A stretch of DNA of 64,000 bases, taken from contig JBEKBM010000004.1 of the NCBI GenBank assembly GCA_050015395.1, positions 1-64,000 on the forward strand, given 5' to 3'. This document shows positions 3,329 through 24,078 of this stretch, piece by piece (the stretch's first letter is position 1; every line of letters begins with the position of its first letter). Source of the DNA: Candidatus Bathyarchaeia archaeon (lineage in GTDB: Archaea > Thermoproteota > Bathyarchaeia > Bathyarchaeales > Bathycorpusculaceae). The notes beneath the pieces were generated by a model. The model was not told the origin of the DNA. It was given only the letters and a program-made list of their open reading frames with translations, and searched no databases. A program made the position numbers and the translations under genes.

Positions 3329-5095
3329 TCAGCCTTGCGGTTGCGTTGCCTTTCTTGCTTTTCTTAATACAAGCATAACTGCAACGGACACTGCTAATAT
3401 GATGAACAGCGACAAGATTACCGATGACGGAAACTCTGGAACAGTAGTCGTTGGAGTGGACCCAAGTGCTATAACTATTGTGTGGCTACTGTGATGATAC
3501 GTAAAAGTTATTATCCACACATTGTTCTCTGAAACGGAAGTATAATTAATTGCCCCCCCGTCTAATGTGACATTAATTTTTGAAATATCTGGGATAAGTG
3601 ATTGTGGAATGCAAACTTCTGTAAATCCCGTTGTTCCAGAAGGCCCAGAGACGCCGAAGCTTAACTCATTTGTTGTTGAGTCAAACGTTAAGCTTGTAAG
3701 TGTTGAATTTGAAGTTACAGAGAAGACATTTTGATTTTGATTATTGAAAGGTGCTACTGCAAAGTTGGATATTGTGCTTACACTTGAGTAGACGCCGTCT
3801 CCTGGCCATGTAGCTTTAATGACATCGTTACCTGAAGCCGAAGGCGTCCATGTAACAGAGAAACTTCCATTATTATCGGTGTTTACATAAGCTAAATCTT
3901 GCCAAGTAGCTCCTCCTGTGACACTGTCAGAAAGCTGTATTCCAGCACCAGATAAGCCTACTCCATTATATGTCAATGACCCCTGAATTTGAACGTTAAA
4001 TCCAGAAGTTGTCGTAGAACTTATGCAATAGAATGATAAGTTCGGGGATGGCAGTGGATTCACTGTAACTGAAACAGCGTTAGAAGCAGCAGACGTAACT
4101 GGTGTATTAGCACTATCAGTAACTTTGCAAGTAACCGAGTATGAACCAGCCGACCCGCTGAAAGAGTAAGTGTTGGAGTCACTTCCAACAGGTGAACCGT
4201 TCAGGTACCACTGATAAGTCAGTGTTCCCGTACCGCCAGAAGCACTGGCCGTAAAAGTCTGAGCTTGACCCGCATCCAAAGTAACTGGACCAACCGGCGC
4301 GATACTCACAGCCGGCACAGCACTCACCGTAATTGTAACAGCGCTAGAAGCAGCAGACGTAACCGGCACAGAAGCACTATCAGTCACCTTACAAGTAACT
4401 GAATGTGAAGTTCCCGAAGCAGTATAAGAATAACTTGCACTGTTAGAGCCAACCGCAGAACCGTCCAGATACCACTGATAATTAATTGTGCCTGAACCGC
4501 CACTGGCCGTAGCCATAAACACCTGAACTTGACCAACATCCATAGTAAGCGGACCAGCAGGCGCGATACTCACAGTCGGCGAAGCACTCACCGTAACCGT
4601 AACCACGTTAGAAGCCACAACAGCCCCAGCGCTGTCAGTCACTTTAAGCTCAAAGCTCCAAGACCCCGTAAGCGTAAGGCTGCCAGTGGAAATGCTCGTT
4701 GCACTCGAAGTCGCATAGCCAAGCGTTGAATAACTTAAAGCTCCAGGAGCCTTCGCCATCCACTGGTACGAGAACAGACCAGCGCCACCAGAAATATCAC
4801 CAGACACAGAAAGCGTGGAAGTCTGAGTCTGATCAACCGTAGTCGGAGAAGCAGAAACAGTCGGAGCAGCCAAAGTATCCACCACCGACATCGTATTGAT
4901 GCCGCCATTTGTAACATATGCGTATGCGCCGTTGGGCGTTACAGCCACACCCCAAGGAAAGCTTCCAACGGGTACCGTCGCCGTCACCGCCACCGCTCGA
5001 ACTGGCTGAGGCAATAATGCGAAAGCGTAGAACAAGAAGAAGATGACGAGAAGGATGTAGCCAACTCTCACCGTCTTTGTTGTCCCTCGCTTCAT
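3329..5095 (-). CDS. cell-surface protein: signal peptide, one YVTN repeat, Ig-like repeats, PEF-CTERM anchor
   Basis: N-terminal hydrophobic signal; PWGVAVTPNGAYAYVTN; repeated YQWY..G / CKVTDSA modules; C-terminal VPEF + TM helix + basic tail. Confidence 0.85.
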   Translation of the reverse strand: MKRGTTKTVRVGYILLVIFFLFYAFALLPQPVRAVAVTATVPVGSFPWGVAVTPNGAYAYVTNGGINTMSVVDTLAAPTVSASPTTVDQTQTSTLSVSGDISGGAGLFSYQWMAKAPGALSYSTLGYATSSATSISTGSLTLTGSWSFELKVTDSAGAVVASNVVTVTVSASPTVSIAPAGPLTMDVGQVQVFMATASGGSGTINYQWYLDGSAVGSNSASYSYTASGTSHSVTCKVTDSASVPVTSAASSAVTITVSAVPAVSIAPVGPVTLDAGQAQTFTASASGGTGTLTYQWYLNGSPVGSDSNTYSFSGSAGSYSVTCKVTDSANTPVTSAASNAVSVTVNPLPSPNLSFYCISSTTTSGFNVQIQGSLTYNGVGLSGAGIQLSDSVTGGATWQDLAYVNTDNNGSFSVTWTPSASGNDVIKATWPGDGVYSSVSTISNFAVAPFNNQNQNVFSVTSNSTLTSLTFDSTTNELSFGVSGPSGTTGFTEVCIPQSLIPDISKINVTLDGGAINYTSVSENNVWIITFTYHHSSHTIVIALGSTPTTTVPEFPSSVILSLFIILAVSVAVMLVLRKARKATQPQG

Positions 5096-5343
5096 TCTTT
5101 CACCCCACCATTAAACCCTTCGCTGATGTTAGCCGAGTAGACTACGCCGTCTACAACAGCAGGAGACGATTCAACCACGCCGCCAGTAGTGTAGTTCCAG
5201 AGCAGCGTACCAGCAAGCGCTGGATTGCCTGTTCCTGCGCCGCTTTGAGCAGGGCCAAAATGCACAGTAACAACTAAAATCAATACACCGATAATTATGT
5301 CTGTCAGGAATGCGCTCAATAGTGCTTTCTTTCTCATAGGCAA
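5092..5343 (-). pseudogene. truncated PQQ-like beta-propeller surface protein (signal peptide + first repeat)
   Basis: GAGTGNPALAGTLLWNYTTGGVVESSPAVVDGVVY matches the start of the repeat region of 29818-31188, then stops. Confidence 0.7.
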
Positions 5344-5505
5344 CTCTCTAACATTCGAATTTGCCTGCTTTACTTAATCTAATGTATGTTCTATCTCTTG
5401 TTTTAGCTTATATAATTTTTCGTGTATAAGTGAGTATATTTGAGTATTAACGCAATAAACATGAATGATGTGATAAGCTTGAACGAAAACGACACGGTTG
5501 AAACT

Positions 5506-5661
5506 ATGGCAAAAATTAGACTCCAGGTAACAGTAAGAGAAGACCTTGTAAAATGGACTGATGAACAAGTAGAGAAGCTGAGATTCGCAAGCAGGTCCCA
5601 CGCTGTCGAATATGCATTGACCCAGTTAAAGGAAAAAGAGAAGATAGACAAGAAAGCTTGA
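5506..5661 (+). CDS. ribbon-helix-helix (CopG-like) protein
   Basis: MAKIRLQVTVREDLVKWTDEQVEKLRFASRSHAVEYAL fits the RHH pattern; start could be as early as 5440. Confidence 0.7.
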   Translation: MAKIRLQVTVREDLVKWTDEQVEKLRFASRSHAVEYALTQLKEKEKIDKKA

Positions 5662-5889
5662 GCGCGATCAGATGCATTGTCCTCAAGCCATCGCTATTTT
5701 TCAGTAGCACATAAGCATCCGCAGGCCTCAAAGCACTAATCGACCAAAACAAGATCATAATCCGACAAAACGAACTGCTCCTAAGAGCTCTCAAGAAAAA
5801 CCCTTTAAGTGCCTATAGTAAAATGCACAAACTGTGGTCTACCGATCAGCAGCAAAAAAAGGCAGAGTTACATAAACTTGGATTAACAT

Positions 5890-6075
5890 TTATTCCAGTT
5901 TTTCTATAATTAGCCGCTTGTTTTCTACGTCTATTTTGACTTTTACTTTTTCTTCAAGTCTAAAAGGAAATACGCTATCTTTGGCGACTTCTGTGGGTAT
6001 GTAAACATAGTATTTGCTGTAGAGTTTTCCAGCGGTTTGAGTTGGTCTGTTAACCAATTTACTTTCGCTTTCCAA
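5890..6075 (-). CDS. small AbrB-like DNA-binding protein
   Basis: YVYIP..VAKDS.FPF...EKVKV.ID....LIIE swapped-hairpin-like pattern. Confidence 0.6.
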   Translation of the reverse strand: MESESKLVNRPTQTAGKLYSKYYVYIPTEVAKDSVFPFRLEEKVKVKIDVENKRLIIEKLE

Positions 6076-6179
6076 ATGCTAAAAAATAAGTTTGGGGAAA
6101 ATAACCCTAAAAAGGTCAACTATTTTTCTCTTTTTTCCTCATCAAGAAGCGGACTTACTCGCCAAGATTCTCATGGGAA

Positions 6180-6247
6180 ATGGAGAGGCAAGACCCCGAA
6201 ATGTACCTTTTACGCGACTTTGAGAAAGCCGAAATAAAAGGCGAAAC
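6180..6247 (+). repeat. 68-bp direct repeat copy 2
   Basis: 65/68 identical to 2312-2379. Confidence 0.85.
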
Positions 6248-6373
6248 TACTCTTAACATGGAGAAGCATCCCACGAAGAGTTAATAGAACCTTTGTTAGG
6301 ATACTGTTAAGTTAAGTGACCCAACAGAAATATAGGCAAAAGTTAAGTATTGAATCTAATAATCTACGTCTAC

Positions 6374-7204
6374 ATGATTGACGTACCAGAGCTTGATACT
6401 TTTCTAAAATCTGTCTTTTATGCCTTTAATTGCAATGCGCCAATTTACAAAGGAGTACTAACTAAAGAAACCCAAACATACTGTTCCTTTATTTTGTCTC
6501 AACAAGGAACATTTATGCGTTTTAAAGAATTGGTTGAACAATCAGGGCTAGGATTTCTATTTACCGTGGGGAGATGCAATTCAATGTATGGGGTTAACGA
6601 GTTAAAAACGCTTTATGACCCATATCTTCTGCTTGCAGCGCCCTTCCTAAAAATATATCCTAGATTACTTTATTCCAACGGTTTTATCCAAGAAACTCCT
6701 AACTTTGAAAAGCATGATTATTACTTCAGATATTATCCAAAGATGCTTGTCAAAATGTACATCAAGGATGGAGAAAAAATAAGATTAATTCCTTCAACAC
6801 ATTGGATTCTTGGAACACACAATTTGAACAATGTCACCGGAAGAACTATGATAAGCTATAATGTGGCTGTAAATGTTAATCTAAACACTATTGTTGAGGA
6901 AGAATTACATGGGCAAATCCAAAACTTACACAGCACTAGCAATACTCAGACAGTAGTTCGGCAAATAGAAATGGTAAACATAGGTCTAAAAAAAGAAATA
7001 GAAGAAAATCTTAACAGAATATTGTCTACTGAAGAGAAGAAATTCAAGGAACTAGGTAGCATCATTCATACAGAATTTGCATCTGAATTACGAACTATGC
7101 AGTGCTTTATCGATAAATTTGAATATGATGTACTCCAGAGTACAGAGCTAAATCTGCTACCTGATCCCACTGTTCAACCAGATGCGACACAAAAAGCAAA
7201 TTAA
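6374..7204 (+). CDS. hypothetical protein, possible degenerate PLD-fold (HKD without His)
   Basis: long AT-rich ORF (upstream TTG at 6350); RYYPKMLVKMYIKD...WILGTHNL resembles HxKxxxxD...GSxNL. Confidence 0.6.
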   Translation: MIDVPELDTFLKSVFYAFNCNAPIYKGVLTKETQTYCSFILSQQGTFMRFKELVEQSGLGFLFTVGRCNSMYGVNELKTLYDPYLLLAAPFLKIYPRLLYSNGFIQETPNFEKHDYYFRYYPKMLVKMYIKDGEKIRLIPSTHWILGTHNLNNVTGRTMISYNVAVNVNLNTIVEEELHGQIQNLHSTSNTQTVVRQIEMVNIGLKKEIEENLNRILSTEEKKFKELGSIIHTEFASELRTMQCFIDKFEYDVLQSTELNLLPDPTVQPDATQKAN

Positions 7205-7236
7205 TGAGAATAACAGTATTACAATAAGGGATATTC

Positions 7237-7389
7237 ATGAAGCAAACTAAACAAGAAAGAAAGGCACAGCCAGTTGATACTCTGCTTTCCGATAGTTTTT
7301 GCAGCAATCAAATATTTTATAACGACCTAGAAAAGCAACCTAAACTGTTTTCAAAACAACTGGCTTATGTAACCGCCAAGTCACAATAG
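7237..7389 (+). CDS. putative 50-aa micro-ORF inside the TIR element
   Basis: translated by hand: MKQTKQERKAQPVDTLLSDSFCSNQIFYNDLEKQPKLFSKQLAYVTAKSQ; AAGGGA upstream. Confidence 0.3.
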   Translation: MKQTKQERKAQPVDTLLSDSFCSNQIFYNDLEKQPKLFSKQLAYVTAKSQ

Positions 7390-7485
7390 CTATTTTATTT
7401 TTATTCGTTGTTTTATCTTCTTTTCATACTCTTTTTCCGTTATGATGCCTTTCTCAATGAGCAAGTCAACTAAGGCAGAGTGCAT
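7390..7485 (-). CDS. putative 31-aa SHOCT-like helical micro-protein
   Basis: translated by hand: MHSALVDLLIEKGIITEKEYEKKIKQRIKIK (L.EKGIIT..EYE pattern). Confidence 0.5.
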   Translation of the reverse strand: MHSALVDLLIEKGIITEKEYEKKIKQRIKIK

Positions 7486-7503
7486 AAAGCTTGCGATAAT
7501 TTT

Positions 7504-7902
7504 TTAGATTTCAAAATAAATTATGTGTATGTTGGTTTTATTATTGAGTCCTAATTTTGCTAGGTTTTGTTTTAACTCATTGATGCATGACTTAGGTATT
7601 CCAATGTAGAAGGGGCAAGTTTGGTCTTTCATGTTCCCACTGGCAACGGAAAGATTTGAAAAGATTTTGAATTGGTCATTGGTTCTTTCGTTGTCTAAAT
7701 CATCGCATGTTTTTGCTTCTCCTATAGCTATTAGCCCTTGTGAATTTTTTCCCATTATATCAGGAACTCTGCCTCCAATATTATCGCATTCAGGATAGCC
7801 ATCCCGAGCAGCAGCCTTGTAAATTTCAAAGCCTTCCTTTTTTAAATAATCCATAAGTCCATTTTGGATTTGTTTGTGTTCAGGGCTTTCTCCCGTTGAC
7901 AT
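7504..7902 (-). CDS. PD-(D/E)XK nuclease-like protein
   Basis: ES.EH helix followed by RVPDIMG...IAIGEAKT motif. Confidence 0.7.
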   Translation of the reverse strand: MSTGESPEHKQIQNGLMDYLKKEGFEIYKAAARDGYPECDNIGGRVPDIMGKNSQGLIAIGEAKTCDDLDNERTNDQFKIFSNLSVASGNMKDQTCPFYIGIPKSCINELKQNLAKLGLNNKTNIHIIYFEI

Positions 7903-8050
7903 ATGAATCGACTCTTTCTTTCCTTATGTTATCAGTAAGAATTTAAAACTTTGGAAGGCTTCTTATGTTGGGTCACTTAACTTAACAGTATCCTTTGTTA
8001 GTAACCTTTTAATCTACTCACTGCACTAAGCATAAAAAAGGTAAACAACA

Positions 8051-9823
8051 TTGAACGCCGAAGCAAAATGTGCAAAACCGGAATGTGACAAGTTTACAGC
8101 CATAAACGAGTTAGCACGCCGCAGAGGATTTTTCTGGCCGTCATTTGAGATTTACGGTGGTAGCGGCGGCTTTGTAACTTATGGTCCCCTTGGTGCACGG
8201 TTGAAACAGAATATTGAAGCCAAGCTTAGAGAGCTTTTCGTCAAAAAAATCGGCATTTACGAAATGGAATCATCGGTAATTGCGCCCGAAAAAGTTTTCG
8301 AAGCGTCAGGTCACGTGGACCATTTCAAGGAGCCGATGGTGGAGTGCCAAAACTGTCATGGTCGTTTCCGAGCTGACCATTTGCTTGAGGCAAAAGGCAT
8401 TAGTTCGGCTGAAGCTGAAAAAATGAGTTTAAACGAGATTAAAGAAGAAATCGAGCGCCATGGCATAGTGTGCCCTGACTGCGGAGGCAAATTTGGTGAG
8501 CCCCAGCAGTTCTTAACAATGTTTAAAACCAATATTGGACCTTACTCGGAGGCTGTTGGTTACGGGAGACCTGAGGCGGCACAAAACATTTTCGTTGAAT
8601 TCAATCGCCTCTACAATGTTGCGCGCGAAAGGCTTCCTTTCGGAGTTATCCAAATCGGTCACGCTTTGCGTAATGAGATTTCGCCAAGGCAAGGCTTGAT
8701 TAGGTTGAGAGAGTTCACGATTGCTGATTTAGAGTTCTTCTTTGATCCTGAAGAGCCATGCTGCCATCTGCTTAGTGAAGTGGAAAACGAAGTATTGCCC
8801 ATTCTACTATGCGAAACAAGGCTGAAGAAATGCGAGGACACAACAGACCTCACAGTTAGAGAAGCGCTTGACCGGAAAATAATTCGCTCAGAATGGCAAG
8901 CGTTTTTCATGGCGATGGCGAAGAAACTTTTAATGGATCTCGGCGTACCAGCGGAGAAACAGCGGTTTATCGAAAAACTCACTTGGGAAAAAGCGCATTA
9001 CTCAAGCCAAAGCTTCGATCAAGAAGTTTTAGTTGACCGTTGGGGCTGGGTAGAAGTCTCTGGACATGCGTACCGAACAGATTACGATTTGAAGTGCCAC
9101 ATGAAAGCAAGCGGCGTCGACATGACCGTTTACAAAGAATACACTAATCCCGTCGAAAAAGAAGAGCTCACTGTTAAGCCAATTATGGCTAAGCTTGGTC
9201 CAGTATACAAGAAAGAAGCCTCAAAAGTGGCTGCGCTGCTTGCTAAGGTGCCTGCGCAGGAAGTTGCTGACGCCATGCAAAAGCAAGGTTACTTTAGGGT
9301 TGAAAACTATGAAGTCAAACCTGACCAAGTAGATATTAGCAGGCAAAAAACGATTGTTCGCGGCACCCGCTTCATACCGCATGTAGTTGAACCAAGTTTT
9401 GGCGCTGACAGGCTCTTTTACGCGGCATTGGAGTATGCTTACGGCATCAAGGACGACCGAGTTGTCATGAGTTTTCCAAGAAGCATTGCACCAGTTCAAG
9501 TTGGCGTTTACCCCTTAATGAGTAAAGATGGCTTAGACATAAAAGCAGTACAAGTGCAAAGGATGCTGGCGAATGAGGGTTTCCTGGTTGAATTAGACGA
9601 AACAGGCTCCATCGGTCGCCGTTATGCAAGAGCTGATGAGGCAGGCGTACAATTAGGAATAACCATAGATTACGATACGTTAAAAGATAACACTGTAACC
9701 ATACGAGACCGCGATAGTTGGCAACAAGTTCGAACCCAAGTCAAAGACCTACCAGAGCTCTTACGCAGTTACTTTCAAGAAAAAATAAACTTCGGAAATT
9801 TAGGTTTATTAATTGAAAGTTAA
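8051..9823 (+). CDS. glyS: glycine--tRNA ligase (dimeric, eukaryote/archaea type)
   Basis: RRGFFWPSFEIYGG, RPEAAQNIF, RNEISPRQGLIRLREF, EPSFG, GSIGRRYARADE. Confidence 0.97.
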   Translation: MNAEAKCAKPECDKFTAINELARRRGFFWPSFEIYGGSGGFVTYGPLGARLKQNIEAKLRELFVKKIGIYEMESSVIAPEKVFEASGHVDHFKEPMVECQNCHGRFRADHLLEAKGISSAEAEKMSLNEIKEEIERHGIVCPDCGGKFGEPQQFLTMFKTNIGPYSEAVGYGRPEAAQNIFVEFNRLYNVARERLPFGVIQIGHALRNEISPRQGLIRLREFTIADLEFFFDPEEPCCHLLSEVENEVLPILLCETRLKKCEDTTDLTVREALDRKIIRSEWQAFFMAMAKKLLMDLGVPAEKQRFIEKLTWEKAHYSSQSFDQEVLVDRWGWVEVSGHAYRTDYDLKCHMKASGVDMTVYKEYTNPVEKEELTVKPIMAKLGPVYKKEASKVAALLAKVPAQEVADAMQKQGYFRVENYEVKPDQVDISRQKTIVRGTRFIPHVVEPSFGADRLFYAALEYAYGIKDDRVVMSFPRSIAPVQVGVYPLMSKDGLDIKAVQVQRMLANEGFLVELDETGSIGRRYARADEAGVQLGITIDYDTLKDNTVTIRDRDSWQQVRTQVKDLPELLRSYFQEKINFGNLGLLIES

Positions 9824-20547: not shown

Positions 20548-20771
20548 TCAACCGAGCAGTCTTAGAGTTGCATCAATGGAATCCAAGGTTTCTTGATATG
20601 CCCTTTTTCTCATCTCTGGGTCGTTCAAAGGCATTCTCAAACTCTCGATTTTAATCCAAGTCTCCATTATACTCTGAGATGTTTTAACGTCCAGTTTACG
20701 GATTAAATCTGGCTTCAAGTTCAGATACACGTCAATGAAAAAGGCTTTACGGATGTTTTCATTAGTTTTTA
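20548..20771 (-). pseudogene. 3' part of the gene interrupted by the IS
   Basis: KTNENIRKAFFIDVYLNLKPD... continues in frame from 21790-21996 once the IS and one TA are removed. Confidence 0.8.
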
Positions 20772-21789
20772 GGGGTGTGCAGAATTTAAGGTGCTTCTGA
20801 ATATTGTTCTTTTATGGAAGCCTGTGAGGTTGTCAGGCTTTTCGTCAACAAAGCAATAGTTCCAGCCGAGCCTAAAAGAAGAGGAAACCCTGGTTACGGA
20901 AGAGTCAAAGCACTTAGAGTTCTCGTCTACGCTAGGCTGAAAGGATTAGATAATGACACTCGAGCAGTTGAACATCTGAAAAAACATCCGTGGACAGCTA
21001 AAACTCTTGGATTAGACACTGTGCCAGACAGAACCACTGTTGGCAGATGGTGGAGACGCTACTTTAGCCTTCTAGAGGAGACTTTCATAAAGATAGCAGA
21101 TATACTTCAACTTGCTGTGCCAACAACAATCGCAGTTGTTGATTCAACACCGCTGGTGGATCTCTATGATATGGAAGCAGGTTGGGGCCATACGAGTAGG
21201 GGAAGGTTCAGAGGCTTTAAGCTTCATGCCGCCGTGAACCAAGTGGGCTTACCGTTGAGAGCGCTGGTTACGCCGGGTAACCGTTATGACGGACCGTTTC
21301 TTCCAAAACTGATTGAAGATCTAGAGGCTGATTACGTTTTGGCTGATGGGGCTTATAGTTCAAAGCAGAACTTCAAAGCGGTCAGAGCAATAGGCGCTAA
21401 ACCTGTCATTGCAGATAACCCTCGGAAAAAAGGAAAAGGTCGCAAAATTGAGTCTGGTGAGCTTTTAAGGAAAAAACGTTATGTAATCGAGCAGTTCAAC
21501 GGTCTTATCAAAGATAATGTTTTGGACGAGTGCTGGATTAGGCCAAGAGGTATTGTCAAGAAAGCCGCGATGGTTATGGCTGGGCTCATAAGCGTCGATG
21601 CCAACGCCATAGAAGCCATGGTTCAAGGCGAAAAGAGCCTGAAAACAGTGAGTAAGTACTGGGATTAACTGATAAGCTCAAATGGTACAGTTCAAGCCTC
21701 GAAATCTTGGCGATTCCCAGATTAACCCCAGCACCCGCTCACTAACTCATTTAGCAGGCAAACTATAAAAAAGAAATTGTGCACACTTC
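20772..21789 (+). mobile_element. IS5-like insertion sequence (~1,018 bp)
   Basis: imperfect TIRs GGGGTGTGCAGAATTT / GAAGTGTGCACAATTT (13/16), TA duplication at 20770-71 and 21790-91, single DDE transposase; family assignment is tentative. Confidence 0.85.
20814..21668 (+). CDS. DDE transposase (IS4/IS5 superfamily)
   Basis: PDRTT, VVDSTP, GFKLH, LADGAY, RYVIEQFNG catalytic motifs. Confidence 0.93.
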   Translation: MEACEVVRLFVNKAIVPAEPKRRGNPGYGRVKALRVLVYARLKGLDNDTRAVEHLKKHPWTAKTLGLDTVPDRTTVGRWWRRYFSLLEETFIKIADILQLAVPTTIAVVDSTPLVDLYDMEAGWGHTSRGRFRGFKLHAAVNQVGLPLRALVTPGNRYDGPFLPKLIEDLEADYVLADGAYSSKQNFKAVRAIGAKPVIADNPRKKGKGRKIESGELLRKKRYVIEQFNGLIKDNVLDECWIRPRGIVKKAAMVMAGLISVDANAIEAMVQGEKSLKTVSKYWD

Positions 21790-21996
21790 TATAGTTTTGA
21801 TATAAGACTCGATTTCTGGCTTAATCATCTCGAAGTTTTCTTTCATGCGGTTCTTCAGTTCTTTCTTTTCATTTTTGTTTTTCCAATTTTCCAAGCCCAC
21901 AGAGCCAATGAATCCTATGAAAGCTCCGAGAACAGCACCAACAGCCAACGTAACTAGGGTTTCAATCAATGATGGGCTTATGTCCAATCGGTTCAC
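21790..21996 (-). pseudogene. 5' part of the gene interrupted by the IS (N-terminal TM helix)
   Basis: ORF 21763-21996 reads into the IS end (EVCTISFL). Confidence 0.8.
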
Positions 21997-23629: not shown

Positions 23630-23935
23630 ACCATTGGTAAGCTTCGAGTTTGCGCAAGCTTTTTAAAAATTGAGTTGAGAAGATGCCTTTTTTTAATTTT
23701 TTTAACTATGCGTTTTCGTAAATAACATACAAAGGCTCGTTTGAAAAGCTGGCTAACCTGTAGTGGTACTCTTTTTGGTAGTTAAATTACCAAGCAAGTG
23801 TATATTTGCTATGAAAATCATCAGTACAATGGAAAGAAATTTTCATGCCGCTTCTATGAACGCTTGCGTTATAAACTTTAGCTCTTGTTTTTTCTTCTTT
23901 AGTGCTTTTTTTCTACATCAAAAAACAGGCTTTTC

Positions 23936-24078
23936 TATGTTGAAAAGCACCGTTCTGCATGCAAAGTGCGCGGTCTTAGTTCTATGCACATCTATGTTGA
24001 ATCATATTTGGAGCCATTAGGATCATCTAGTAGACCGGGGGGTAGGCTGTTGCGCACACACAAATGCCCTAAGACAAA
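23936..24078 (-). repeat. dispersed non-coding repeat, copy B
   Basis: reverse complement aligns to 2078-2194 and 59841-59982. Confidence 0.85.

What the first reader, a model, noticed from the sequence alone, without database searches (positions are those of the whole stretch)
6291..8001. Transposase-less cargo transposon with perfect 27-bp TIRs and a 9-bp TSD
Seen: GATACTGTTAAGTTAAGTGACCCAACA (6300-6326) and its exact reverse complement (7966-7992), each flanked by CTTTGTTAG, 49 bp upstream of glyS. A 28-bp TIR/7-bp TSD register is also possible. The 1,693-bp interior is AT-rich, holds only passenger ORFs and has no DDE, HUH or recombinase motif. Established: TIR plus TSD is the footprint of DDE transposition, and IS26 (IS6 family) ends begin GGCACTGTT, similar to GATACTGTT. 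Inference: a recently inserted, non-autonomous mobile cassette moved in trans; the ends do not match the IS5-like element at 20772. Best candidate in this window for an undescribed gene-shuttling system in this lineage.
Basis: partly seen in the sequence, partly recalled or inferred. Interest (0 to 1): 0.8.

Follow-up and report, generated by a model that had tools for sequence, protein, structure and literature searches.

The report
Transposase-less IS6-type cargo cassette, Bathyarchaeia
This 1.7-kb insert upstream of the glycyl-tRNA synthetase gene is a real mobile cassette that has lost its own transposase and belongs to a family of IS6-like transposons that carry mostly restriction-modification and other defence-type genes between Bathyarchaeia genomes.

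Summary
Window 6300-6326 is the exact reverse complement of 7966-7992, and CTTTGTTAG flanks both ends.

The element belongs to a family with ends GATACTGTTAAGTT and 9-bp target duplications:
- The assembly holds 11 such ends.
- The 14-mer occurs in 16 of 36 other genomes of the genus sampled.

Siblings with the same ends encode a 303-aa IS6-family transposase. Of 27 transposase loci, 26 labelled Bathyarchaeota, Bathyarchaeia or Crenarchaeota, 19 have both ends and a perfect 9-bp duplication. Those 19 elements measure 3.4-8.0 kb. Twenty delimited elements carry largely restriction-modification and other defence-type passenger genes.

The window's element has no transposase. It keeps 31 codons of a small gene that follows the transposase in its siblings. 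It is therefore a deletion derivative, a "mobile insertion cassette". Its cargo is a PD-(D/E)xK nuclease-like protein and a 277-aa protein of unknown function.

This assembly has no intact cognate transposase, so the cassette is probably stranded. I found no strict empty allele.

The kind of element is already known; this is a new variant of it.

The parts
6291..6299 (.). left copy of the 9-bp target-site duplication CTTTGTTAG
   Evidence: the 9-bp register is supported by 19 of 27 transposase-bearing loci and by the transposase-less siblings
6300..6326 (+). left terminal inverted repeat: a 14-nt outer core shared by the family plus a subfamily-specific inner part
   Evidence: identical over 26 nt to the left end of the autonomous element in L062
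6371..7204 (+). passenger gene 1: 277-aa protein of unknown function (the ORF is open from 6350; homologues start at 6371)
   Evidence: AlphaFold model with mean pLDDT 87.7; no Foldseek match at E <= 0.001; only weak similarity, Z 5.3-5.6, to small zinc metallopeptidases
7237..7389 (+). 50-aa ORF; doubtful whether it is a gene
   Evidence: no family match; not examined further
7391..7486 (-). remnant (31 codons plus stop) of the second small ORF that follows the transposase gene in autonomous family members
   Evidence: 77-84% nucleotide identity over 71-97 nt to four autonomous elements; alignment; translations
7504..7902 (-). passenger gene 2: 132-aa PD-(D/E)xK nuclease-like protein
   Evidence: D48 and K64 invariant, E62 present in at least 90% of 35 sequences; model with pLDDT 91.9; Foldseek best hit EndoMS/NucS at E 9.9e-4, probability 1.00, followed by Bax1, MspJI, Hjc and XisH
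7966..7992 (-). right terminal inverted repeat
   Evidence: the last 33 nt are identical to the right end of L062
7993..8001 (.). right copy of the target-site duplication CTTTGTTAG
   Evidence: homology with relatives' glyS upstream region begins at 7994
8051..9823 (+). glycyl-tRNA synthetase gene (context, not part of the element)
   Evidence: conserved in 75 of 81 genomes of the genus searched, G000 included

Best explanation
Window 6300-7992 is a non-autonomous derivative, a mobile insertion cassette, of a family of IS6-like DNA transposons found in Bathyarchaeia.

Full-length family members have three parts:
- Terminal inverted repeats of about 26 bp. The outer core is GATACTGTTAAGTT, followed by a subfamily-specific inner part.
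- A conserved core: a 303-aa transposase (N-terminal CxxC...CxxC zinc ribbon, then a DDE domain) followed by two small ORFs.
- One to several passenger genes. Among those that could be assigned, restriction-modification and other defence-type genes are the largest group.

Insertion duplicates 9 bp of target.

The window's copy has lost the transposase, the first small ORF and the 5' part of the second. It carries two unrelated passenger genes instead: a 277-aa protein of unknown function and a PD-(D/E)xK nuclease-like protein.

Inferred steps:
- A cognate transposase of the subfamily with the AAGTGACCCAAC inner end was supplied in trans, or the ancestor still carried it. It bound both repeats, cut the 3' ends and joined them to target DNA with a 9-bp stagger, 49 bp upstream of glyS.
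- Whether movement is replicative through a cointegrate, as described for IS26, or cut-and-paste is not known.

No intact cognate transposase is present in this assembly, so the cassette is probably immobile now.
For: Shown for the window:
- Perfect 27-bp repeats and a perfect 9-bp duplication, against 0 matches in 100 shuffles.

Shown for the family:
- The own genome holds 11 ends at E < 1e-3. Three are complete transposase-less elements, in the window, on C1 and on C21. Their cargos differ and their 9-bp duplications match at 9/9, 8/9 and 9/9.
- The 14-mer core occurs in 19 of 61 genomes, G000 included: 16 of 36 others of the genus and 2 of 3 of a second family. It matched 43 places, against 2 for the reversed control pattern.
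- Short transposase-less copies of 315-790 bp have perfect 9-bp duplications.

Shown for the partner enzyme:
- The ORF L062:2336-3247 scores E 9e-20 against Pfam DDE_Tnp_IS240.
- It scores 130.5 bits against NCBIfam transpos_IS6, whose cut-off is 125.
- C3, C6, C26, C29, D111, D170, E210 and R219 are invariant in 12 transposases of 30-100% identity.

Shown for the autonomous elements:
- Of 27 genome-contig loci encoding this transposase, 19 have both ends with a perfect 9-bp duplication and 1 more matches at 8/9.
- The 19 span 3405-7988 bp.
- L062 shares 26 nt of the left end and 33 nt of the right end with the window.

Shown for descent by deletion:
- Window 7390-7486 is 77-84% identical to the stretch just downstream of the transposase gene in 4 autonomous elements. 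It encodes the last 31 residues of their second small ORF.

Shown for the cargo:
- None of the 3 inner ORFs matches any family in Pfam, NCBIfam or PADLOC.
- Homologues of the 277-aa protein on 8 other metagenome loci have no family ends and no 132-aa neighbour.
Against: - No experiment shows mobilisation in trans.
- The own assembly (98.9% complete, 42 contigs) has no intact cognate transposase. It has only a 72-residue fragment on C13 and a full-length paralogue of a different clade on C23, 36% identical.
- No strict empty site was found. In 74 of 80 other genomes of the genus the glyS upstream region matches only from window 7994 rightwards. The window's left flank is made of other repeat debris that is not syntenic in relatives.
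- In contigs of 4 peat or wetland runs the insertion is present and no joint skips it. Contigs cannot show rare alleles.
- Two defining features of the IS6 family as described (8-bp duplication, length of about 800 bp) are not met.
Confidence: 0.85

Rival explanations
1. The element is autonomous: one of its own proteins, the 277-aa protein or the 132-aa PD-(D/E)xK nuclease, is a new kind of transposase.
For: Both proteins lack any family assignment. PD-(D/E)xK nucleases do take part in some transposition systems (TnsA of Tn7, recalled, not tested here). The 132-aa gene sits where the transposase gene sits in siblings.
Against: Siblings with the same ends carry a bona fide IS6-type DDE transposase. 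Homologues of the 277-aa protein on 8 of 8 other metagenome loci have no family ends within the stretches held. Neither protein recurs in the other family elements examined. The 277-aa model has no RNase-H-like match. The 132-aa protein was found in 1 of 80 other genomes of the genus, at 37% identity.
Confidence: 0.03
2. The cassette was inserted by the other IS6-like transposase clade of this genus (about 380 aa), whose only full-length copy in this genome lies on C23.
For: That gene is intact in this genome. The ends of its element in G036 (GGAACTGTAAAGT...) share the ACTGT.AAGT core with the family ends.
Against: Two identical copies of that element in G036 are flanked by 8-bp duplications, not 9-bp ones, and their ends begin GG. 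None of 24 loci of that clade has a strong match to the family-end profile; 3 have weak matches at E 0.39-2.7. The proteins are only 30-37% identical.
Confidence: 0.05
3. The repeats and the duplication do not come from transposition at this site. The block arrived by recombination or transfer of a larger segment, or the repeats are a chance or structural feature.
For: The left flank is not syntenic with relatives and consists of other repeat fragments, so the neighbourhood has been rearranged.
Against: A perfect 9-bp direct repeat directly abuts perfect ends, as in 19 of 27 autonomous loci. Homology with relatives stops exactly at the boundary, and their sequence there ([A/G]TT[T/C]GTTAG in nine of the eleven relatives shown) matches the duplication at 7-8 of 9 positions. 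Shuffles give no such repeat.
Confidence: 0.03

Closest known systems
IS6 / IS26 family insertion sequences, in particular the archaeal IS6-like group (ISPfu1, ISPfu2, ISPfu5 and others)
   Same: The partner transposase matches DDE_Tnp_IS240 and NCBIfam transpos_IS6 above their cut-offs. It has a conserved D, D, E and R. The short terminal repeats have G at positions 1 and 7 and the ACTGTT core. Archaeal members listed by Harmer and Hall 2019 (PMC6807381, Table 5 passages) also begin GA, and ISPfu5 is listed with a 9-bp duplication.
   Different: IS6 members are described as 700-890 bp, with 8-bp duplications, and only one passenger-carrying member (ISDsp3) and two MITEs are recorded (Varani et al. 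2021, PMC7986276, passages). Here the autonomous elements are 3.4-8.0 kb, always with passengers, and the duplication is 9 bp. The transposase is 303 aa with an N-terminal zinc ribbon, two small conserved ORFs follow it, and cargo sits inside a single element rather than between two IS copies.
Mobile insertion cassettes (MIC231 of Bacillus cereus; TnXax1-derived MICs of Xanthomonas)
   Same: Passenger genes lie between IS-type inverted repeats, without a transposase, delimited by the family's target duplication. This is the definition given in PMC4337579 (abstract and introduction passages).
   Different: The described MICs derive from IS231 (IS4 family) or Tn3-family transposons of bacteria. 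This one derives from an IS6-like family of archaea. Mobilisation in trans has been shown for MIC231 (as cited in that paper), not for this element.
Transposons whose cargo is rich in defence systems (Tn7-like elements)
   Same: The cargo is variable and largely defence-type (restriction-modification, GmrSD, Mrr, NYN, PADLOC candidate systems), carried between fixed ends. For Tn7-like elements I saw only the title and abstract of PMC8649781 in a search listing.
   Different: The transposition machinery is unrelated (a single DDE enzyme of IS6 type against TnsABC and others). The elements are much smaller and show no sign of site-specific targeting; the duplicated targets differ.
MITEs
   Same: Non-autonomous, bounded by the ends of an IS family. 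True MITE-sized members of this family exist: 315, 674, 706, 745, 779 and 790 bp.
   Different: The window's element is 1693 bp and holds two intact conserved genes.

Membership tests
IS6 / IS26 family (assessed on the cognate autonomous elements; the window's element has no transposase) | DDE transposase of the IS6 type (Pfam DDE_Tnp_IS240, NCBIfam transpos_IS6) | tested here: met
   L062:2336-3247 scores Pfam E 9e-20, 71.7 bits against a cut-off of 27, and NCBIfam NF033587 130.5 bits against a cut-off of 125, covering profile positions 1-202 of 202
IS6 / IS26 family | catalytic D, D, E followed by K/R | tested here: met
   D111, D170, E210 and R219 are invariant in 12 transposases of 30-100% identity; assigning them to the catalytic triad is by motif position and is an inference
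IS6 / IS26 family | 8-bp target-site duplication | tested here: not met
   The duplication is 9 bp in the window and in 19 of 27 autonomous loci. The paper's table lists 9 bp for the archaeal ISPfu5.
IS6 / IS26 family | length of about 700-890 bp with a single ORF | tested here: not met
   Elements span 3405-7988 bp and hold 4 to 11 called ORFs
IS6 / IS26 family | terminal repeats beginning GG with G at position 7 | tested here: inconclusive
   The ends begin GA, and G7 is present. Several archaeal members in PMC6807381 Table 5 also begin GA.
IS6 / IS26 family | movement by cointegrate formation, cargo carried between two directly repeated IS copies | not testable with these tools
   Only end products are visible. 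Cargo here lies inside single elements.
Mobile insertion cassette (MIC) | passenger genes flanked by inverted repeats of an IS or transposon family | tested here: met
Mobile insertion cassette (MIC) | no transposase of its own | tested here: met
   No family match for any of the 3 ORFs in Pfam, NCBIfam or PADLOC. tblastn with the family transposase finds nothing in the window's contig C4.
Mobile insertion cassette (MIC) | target duplication of the parent family's length | tested here: met
   9 bp, as in the autonomous siblings
Mobile insertion cassette (MIC) | mobilised by a cognate transposase supplied in trans | not testable with these tools
   Needs an assay. No intact cognate enzyme is present in this assembly.
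MITE | small size (a few hundred bp) and no coding capacity | tested here: not met
   1693 bp with two conserved ORFs
PD-(D/E)xK nuclease superfamily (the 132-aa passenger) | restriction-endonuclease-like fold with a D ... (D/E)xK motif | tested here: met
   D48 and K64 are invariant and E62 is present in at least 90% of 35 sequences. Foldseek gives EndoMS at E 9.9e-4, probability 1.00, TM 0.49 by the query; NucS, Bax1, MspJI and Hjc follow. Activity was not tested.

The most novel reading that the evidence does not exclude
This IS6-like family may be a dedicated shuttle for innate-immunity genes in Bathyarchaeia. One review passage (PMC12669027) reports no detectable CRISPR-cas loci in this lineage among 23 complete genomes.

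On this reading the conserved core (transposase plus two small ORFs, one with a SHOCT-like tail) moves interchangeable defence modules. Transposase-less cassettes such as the window's are the stable end state, in which a module is deposited and fixed. The tandem, abutting ends of different subfamilies seen in three elements would mark how ends are recruited and cargos swapped. The window's own two-gene cargo would then be an undescribed defence or toxin-type pair.
Probability: 0.3. Interest if true: 0.6.

Novelty: new variant of a known kind. Interest (0 to 1): 0.45.

Why it matters
- It gives a concrete, sequence-defined route by which accessory genes move within Bathyarchaeia, an abundant uncultured archaeal lineage of peat, wetland and sediment. 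Restriction-modification and other defence-type genes are the largest assigned group of that cargo.
- It extends the IS6-like group to elements that routinely carry several passenger genes inside a single element. The 2021 review records only one such case in the family.
- It yields a simple search handle: a 14-nt end plus a 9-bp duplication. That handle delimits cargo exactly and so points to unannotated candidate defence genes, including the window's two passengers.

For the window itself the practical result is plain. The insert is a real but probably stranded cassette of a known kind.

Tried and rejected
Lines that led nowhere or were set aside:

- A recurrent protein next to the ends. Clustering ORFs of at least 100 aa from 38 loci gave only housekeeping families: ABC ATPases, glycosyltransferases and PQQ-repeat proteins. 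The transposase was found only after listing ORFs inside the paired elements.
- Partners for the five solo ends of the own genome, sought by flank matching and by inverted-repeat search. None was convincing.
- Other repeats of the genome as possible partners. The 230-bp and 270-bp MITE families and the IS5-like element have unrelated ends.
- RNA genes in window 5000-8600. Rfam gave two matches, both below their gathering scores (E 0.5 and 0.95), and ARAGORN on window 4500-9000 found no tRNA.
- Function of the 277-aa protein.
  - Foldseek against the PDB gave nothing at E <= 0.001.
  - VIA-align wide gave at best Z 5.6 (selecase) and Z 5.3-5.5 (BepA, DPP III, an entry titled 'Mechanism of protease dependent DPC repair'). 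By the tool's own note this is within the range of chance, so the zincin-like reading is only a lead.
  - The ESM Atlas put it next to clusters of mitovirus-type RNA polymerase fragments (score 0.94, 152 shared features, below the 170 the tool names). I treat this as noise.
- Conserved neighbours of the 277-aa homologues. None except a possible integrase-like ORF in 3 loci, named from its sequence by eye and not scanned.
- The two small core ORFs. No Pfam family is above its cut-off. SHOCT scores E 0.0025, 18 bits, against a cut-off of 27 for the second ORF.
- Expression. No RNA holder was listed among 24 runs.
- Empty allele. No joint appeared in the contigs of 4 runs. Contigs drop rare variants.
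- Complex prediction and the search of protein representatives were not used. I make no binding claim.
- Supplementary files of papers were not opened. The supplementary tables of PMC6807381 may hold further duplication lengths for archaeal members.
- Claim of not being in print. Four searches listed no description of this Bathyarchaeial family. Subscription journals are not covered.
Full report
**Observation.** The 27-nt sequence at window 6300-6326 recurs as an exact reverse complement at 7966-7992. Both copies are directly flanked on the outside by CTTTGTTAG. With up to three mismatches these are the only two matches in the window, and none occurred in 100 dinucleotide-preserving shuffles. 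The interior holds three ORFs: 6350-7204 (+), 7237-7389 (+) and 7504-7902 (-). In 400-bp bins the interior is 33.5-35.7% G+C, against about 45% in the adjacent glyS gene.

**A family, not a singleton.**
- The window is contig C4:1-64000 of a 2.59-Mb assembly of 42 contigs.
- A profile built from the ends finds 11 ends in this genome at E < 1e-3.
- Three of these form complete elements:
  - the window's element;
  - C1:26658-29200, 2543 bp, flanks CTACTCAGA / CTACTCAGG;
  - C21:9324-13105, 3782 bp, flanks CTAAAATTA on both sides.
- Five are solo ends, on C13, C19, C24, C30 and C40. I could not find partners for them.
- The 14-nt outer core GATACTGTTAAGTT occurs in 19 of 61 genomes searched, the own one included. 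That is 16 of 36 other genomes of the genus and 2 of 3 of one other family of the order, at 43 places in all. The same pattern read backwards hit twice.
- In 39 sources (the window's first 12 kb and 38 fetched loci) the profile listed 55 end matches at E <= 1.
- Transposase-less pairs with a perfect 9-bp duplication number seven: the window, G000:C21, and elements of 745, 674, 706, 779 and 315 bp. Two more pairs match at 8 of 9 and one at 7 of 9.
- The flanks differ from element to element.

**The autonomous partner.**
- One paired element (L062, 3791 bp, duplication CAGAGTTAG) has ends identical to the window's over 26 nt on the left and 33 nt on the right.
- It encodes a 303-aa protein that matches Pfam DDE_Tnp_IS240 at E 9e-20. 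It scores 130.5 bits on NCBIfam's IS6 equivalog, whose cut-off is 125.
- A scan of one genome per species found 27 loci encoding relatives of this enzyme, 67-100% identical in the best segment. Of these, 26 are in records titled Bathyarchaeota, Bathyarchaeia or Crenarchaeota MAGs, and one is in a Candidatus Methanomethylicus MAG.
- Among the 27 loci:
  - 19 have both family ends with a perfect 9-bp duplication;
  - 1 has 8 of 9;
  - 1 has two ends without a matching duplication;
  - 2 show one end;
  - 4 show none within the stretch held.
- The 19 perfect elements measure 3405-7988 bp. All are far larger than the transposase gene.
- Across 12 transposases of 30-100% identity, four cysteines of an N-terminal zinc ribbon and D111, D170, E210 and R219 are invariant.

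**Anatomy of the family.**
- Directly downstream of the transposase gene, on the same strand, lie two small conserved ORFs of about 55 and about 50-53 residues. They are visible by translation in 5 of 5 autonomous elements inspected.
- A crude ORF picker called them in 11 of 20 elements. In 8 others it chose an overlapping opposite-strand ORF at that place, which I did not resolve.
- Neither small ORF reaches a Pfam cut-off. The second has a weak SHOCT-like tail.
- The rest is cargo. Of 70 passenger ORFs of at least 100 aa from 20 elements, each scanned on its own, Pfam found:
  - N6_N4_Mtase in 5;
  - Mrr_cat in 4;
  - N6_Mtase, Methylase_S and Eco57I in 3 each;
  - GmrSD_N and GmrSD_C in 2 each;
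  - NYN in 2;
  - single cases of SacI endonuclease, HSDR_N_2, ParB_N, ParA-type ATPases, DUF3800 and a HicB-like antitoxin.
- PADLOC's most frequent matches were mad2 (7 ORFs) and type II and III methyltransferase models.
- Cargo modules recur with and without the transposase:
  - The three genes of the transposase-less C1 element include matches to the PADLOC candidates PDC-S70 and PDC-M19A. By gene sizes and order they look like the three-gene module found beside the transposase in L145, L147 and L149. I did not compare them directly.
  - The methylase-plus-small-gene pair next to the solo end on C30 resembles, by eye, the pair in one autonomous element. I did not compare them directly either.

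**The window's element is a deletion derivative.**
- Apart from the ends, one internal stretch (7390-7486) is 77-84% identical over 71-97 nt to the region just downstream of the transposase in four autonomous elements.
- Aligned and translated on the minus strand, it is the last 31 codons and the stop of the second small ORF. It is preceded in the same frame by the stop codon of the 132-aa gene.
- The transposase, the first small ORF and the start of the second are gone. The 132-aa gene lies where they would be.

**The cargo.**
- The 132-aa protein has 64 relatives in 90%-identity clusters, none with a Pfam domain.
  - D48 and K64 are invariant and E62 is present in at least 90% of 35 sequences.
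  - The model is confident, pLDDT 91.9.
  - PD-(D/E)xK nucleases lead the Foldseek matches: EndoMS at E 9.9e-4 and probability 1.00, then NucS, Bax1, MspJI, Hjc and XisH.
- The 277-aa protein has 36 relatives, all unnamed.
  - The model is confident, pLDDT 87.7.
  - It has no Foldseek match. It has only weak similarity, Z 5.3-5.6, to small zinc metallopeptidases, and it lacks an HExxH motif.
- The two genes are not a fixed pair. On 8 other metagenome loci the 277-aa homologue has no 132-aa neighbour and no family ends.
- Both genes are rare in the lineage:
  - 277-aa protein: 0 of 200 other genomes of the order;
  - 132-aa protein: 1 of 80 other genomes of the genus.

**State in this genome and population.**
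- tblastn and the IS6 family model find only two IS6-type matches in the own assembly. One is a 72-residue fragment, 71% identical to the family enzyme, on C13 about 1.6 kb inside a solo end. The other is a full-length gene of another clade on C23, 36% identical.
- That other clade forms a 2434-bp element in a relative. Its ends are GGAACTGTAAAGT... and its duplications are 8 bp. It is therefore an unlikely source of a 9-bp duplication.
- The stretch with the insertion is held by 24 listed runs of 22 studies, all labelled peat or wetland metagenomes; 17 rows may be the source of the assembly.
- In 4 runs laid, contigs without differences span the whole element. The right junction is bridged in all four runs and the left junction in three (in X24 the contig begins at 6352). 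No joint skips the element.
- In 74 of 80 other genomes of the genus the glyS upstream region is homologous only from window 7994 rightwards. In nine of the eleven relatives shown, the site reads [A/G]TT[T/C]GTTAG there.
- The window's left flank consists of fragments of other repeats of this genome and is not syntenic. A strict empty site was therefore not obtained.

**Comparison with what is known.**
- Varani et al. 2021 (PMC7986276; passages seen) describe IS6 members as 700-890 bp with 8-bp duplications. They record two MITEs and a single passenger-carrying member, and cargo normally sits between two directly repeated copies.
- Harmer and Hall 2019 (PMC6807381; abstract and table passages seen) argue that archaeal members are distant from IS26. 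They list several with ends beginning GA, and ISPfu5 with a 9-bp duplication.
- Cassettes of passenger genes between IS-type repeats without a transposase are known as mobile insertion cassettes (PMC4337579; abstract and introduction passages).
- The window's element fits that definition. Its family is IS6-like by enzyme and ends, but departs from the family description in size, duplication length, the two accessory ORFs and its routine internal cargo.
- Four literature searches listed no description of this family in Bathyarchaeia.

**Verdict.** The feature is real. The element is a probably stranded, transposase-less cassette of a newly delineated IS6-like cargo-transposon family.

Noticed in passing
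window 20770-21791: IS5-like insertion sequence with a 284-aa transposase ORF at 20814-21668 and 18-nt inverted ends TAGGGGTGTGCAGAATTT (83% complementary). Further partial copies lie at the ends of contigs C42, C26, C11, C40 and C18, so it is multicopy and breaks the assembly.
   Followed up: partly
window 23877-24078 and about 17 other places in G000 (for example C1:17665-17894): A MITE family of about 230 bp with ends GTATGTATTTAGCTCTCG and, in one copy, an 8-bp duplication. It is unrelated to the family studied here. A second MITE family of about 270 bp (for example C1:61764-62031) has ends CAGTAGATCCGTAAGTGGG.
   Followed up: partly
window 6080-6299: The left flank of the cassette is a patchwork of fragments of other repeats. 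A 68-nt piece recurs at 92-96% identity on C4:2312, C12, C15, C19 and C29. The last 52 nt match C10:54020-54071, next to a 230-bp MITE copy.
   Followed up: partly
G000:C21:12700-12933 (L007): A 77-aa ORF that looks like ribosomal protein S17e (named by eye, not scanned) lies inside the transposase-less C21 element, next to its right end. It is 88% identical at the DNA level to C23:17187-17514. It may be a host gene captured as cargo.
   Followed up: no
L145 9396/9422, L153 9672/9698, L060 11054/11080: Two right ends lie in tandem, the outer one only 26 nt long and directly abutting the inner one. In L145 and L153 the two belong to different end subfamilies, and the 9-bp duplication pairs with the outer end. 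This is possibly a trace of end recruitment or of insertion next to an existing end.
   Followed up: no
G036:C1:296460-298893 and G036:C6:18214-20647 (L161, L162); G000:C23:47586-48428: A second IS6-like clade occurs in the same genus. Its transposase is about 380 aa, with a cysteine/histidine-rich N-terminal part that looks like a SWIM zinc finger (by eye). The element is 2434 bp with ends GGAACTGTAAAGT and 8-bp duplications. Together with the 303-aa clade it accounts for transposase matches in 35 of 81 genomes of the genus (G000 included), mostly at 30-39% identity to the 303-aa enzyme.
   Followed up: partly
G000:C40:8763-12874 (L011) and L064: A five-gene module follows a family left end in two genomes: a ParB-like protein, 189-aa and 313-aa proteins, a protein that looks like a PAPS reductase, and a 175-aa membrane protein (named by eye). 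The right end was not found. In G000 the contig ends in an IS5-like copy.
   Followed up: no
L126, L127, L129 (metagenome contigs): Homologues of the 277-aa passenger lie within a few kb of an ORF of about 280 aa that looks like a tyrosine recombinase (by eye, not scanned). That would place this gene on other kinds of mobile islands too.
   Followed up: no
window 3329-5095 (-): A 588-aa secreted repeat protein with a C-terminal membrane anchor, rich in S, T and G. Related repeat arrays occur on several contigs of G000 (C4:29748-30920, C9, C18, C21).
   Followed up: no
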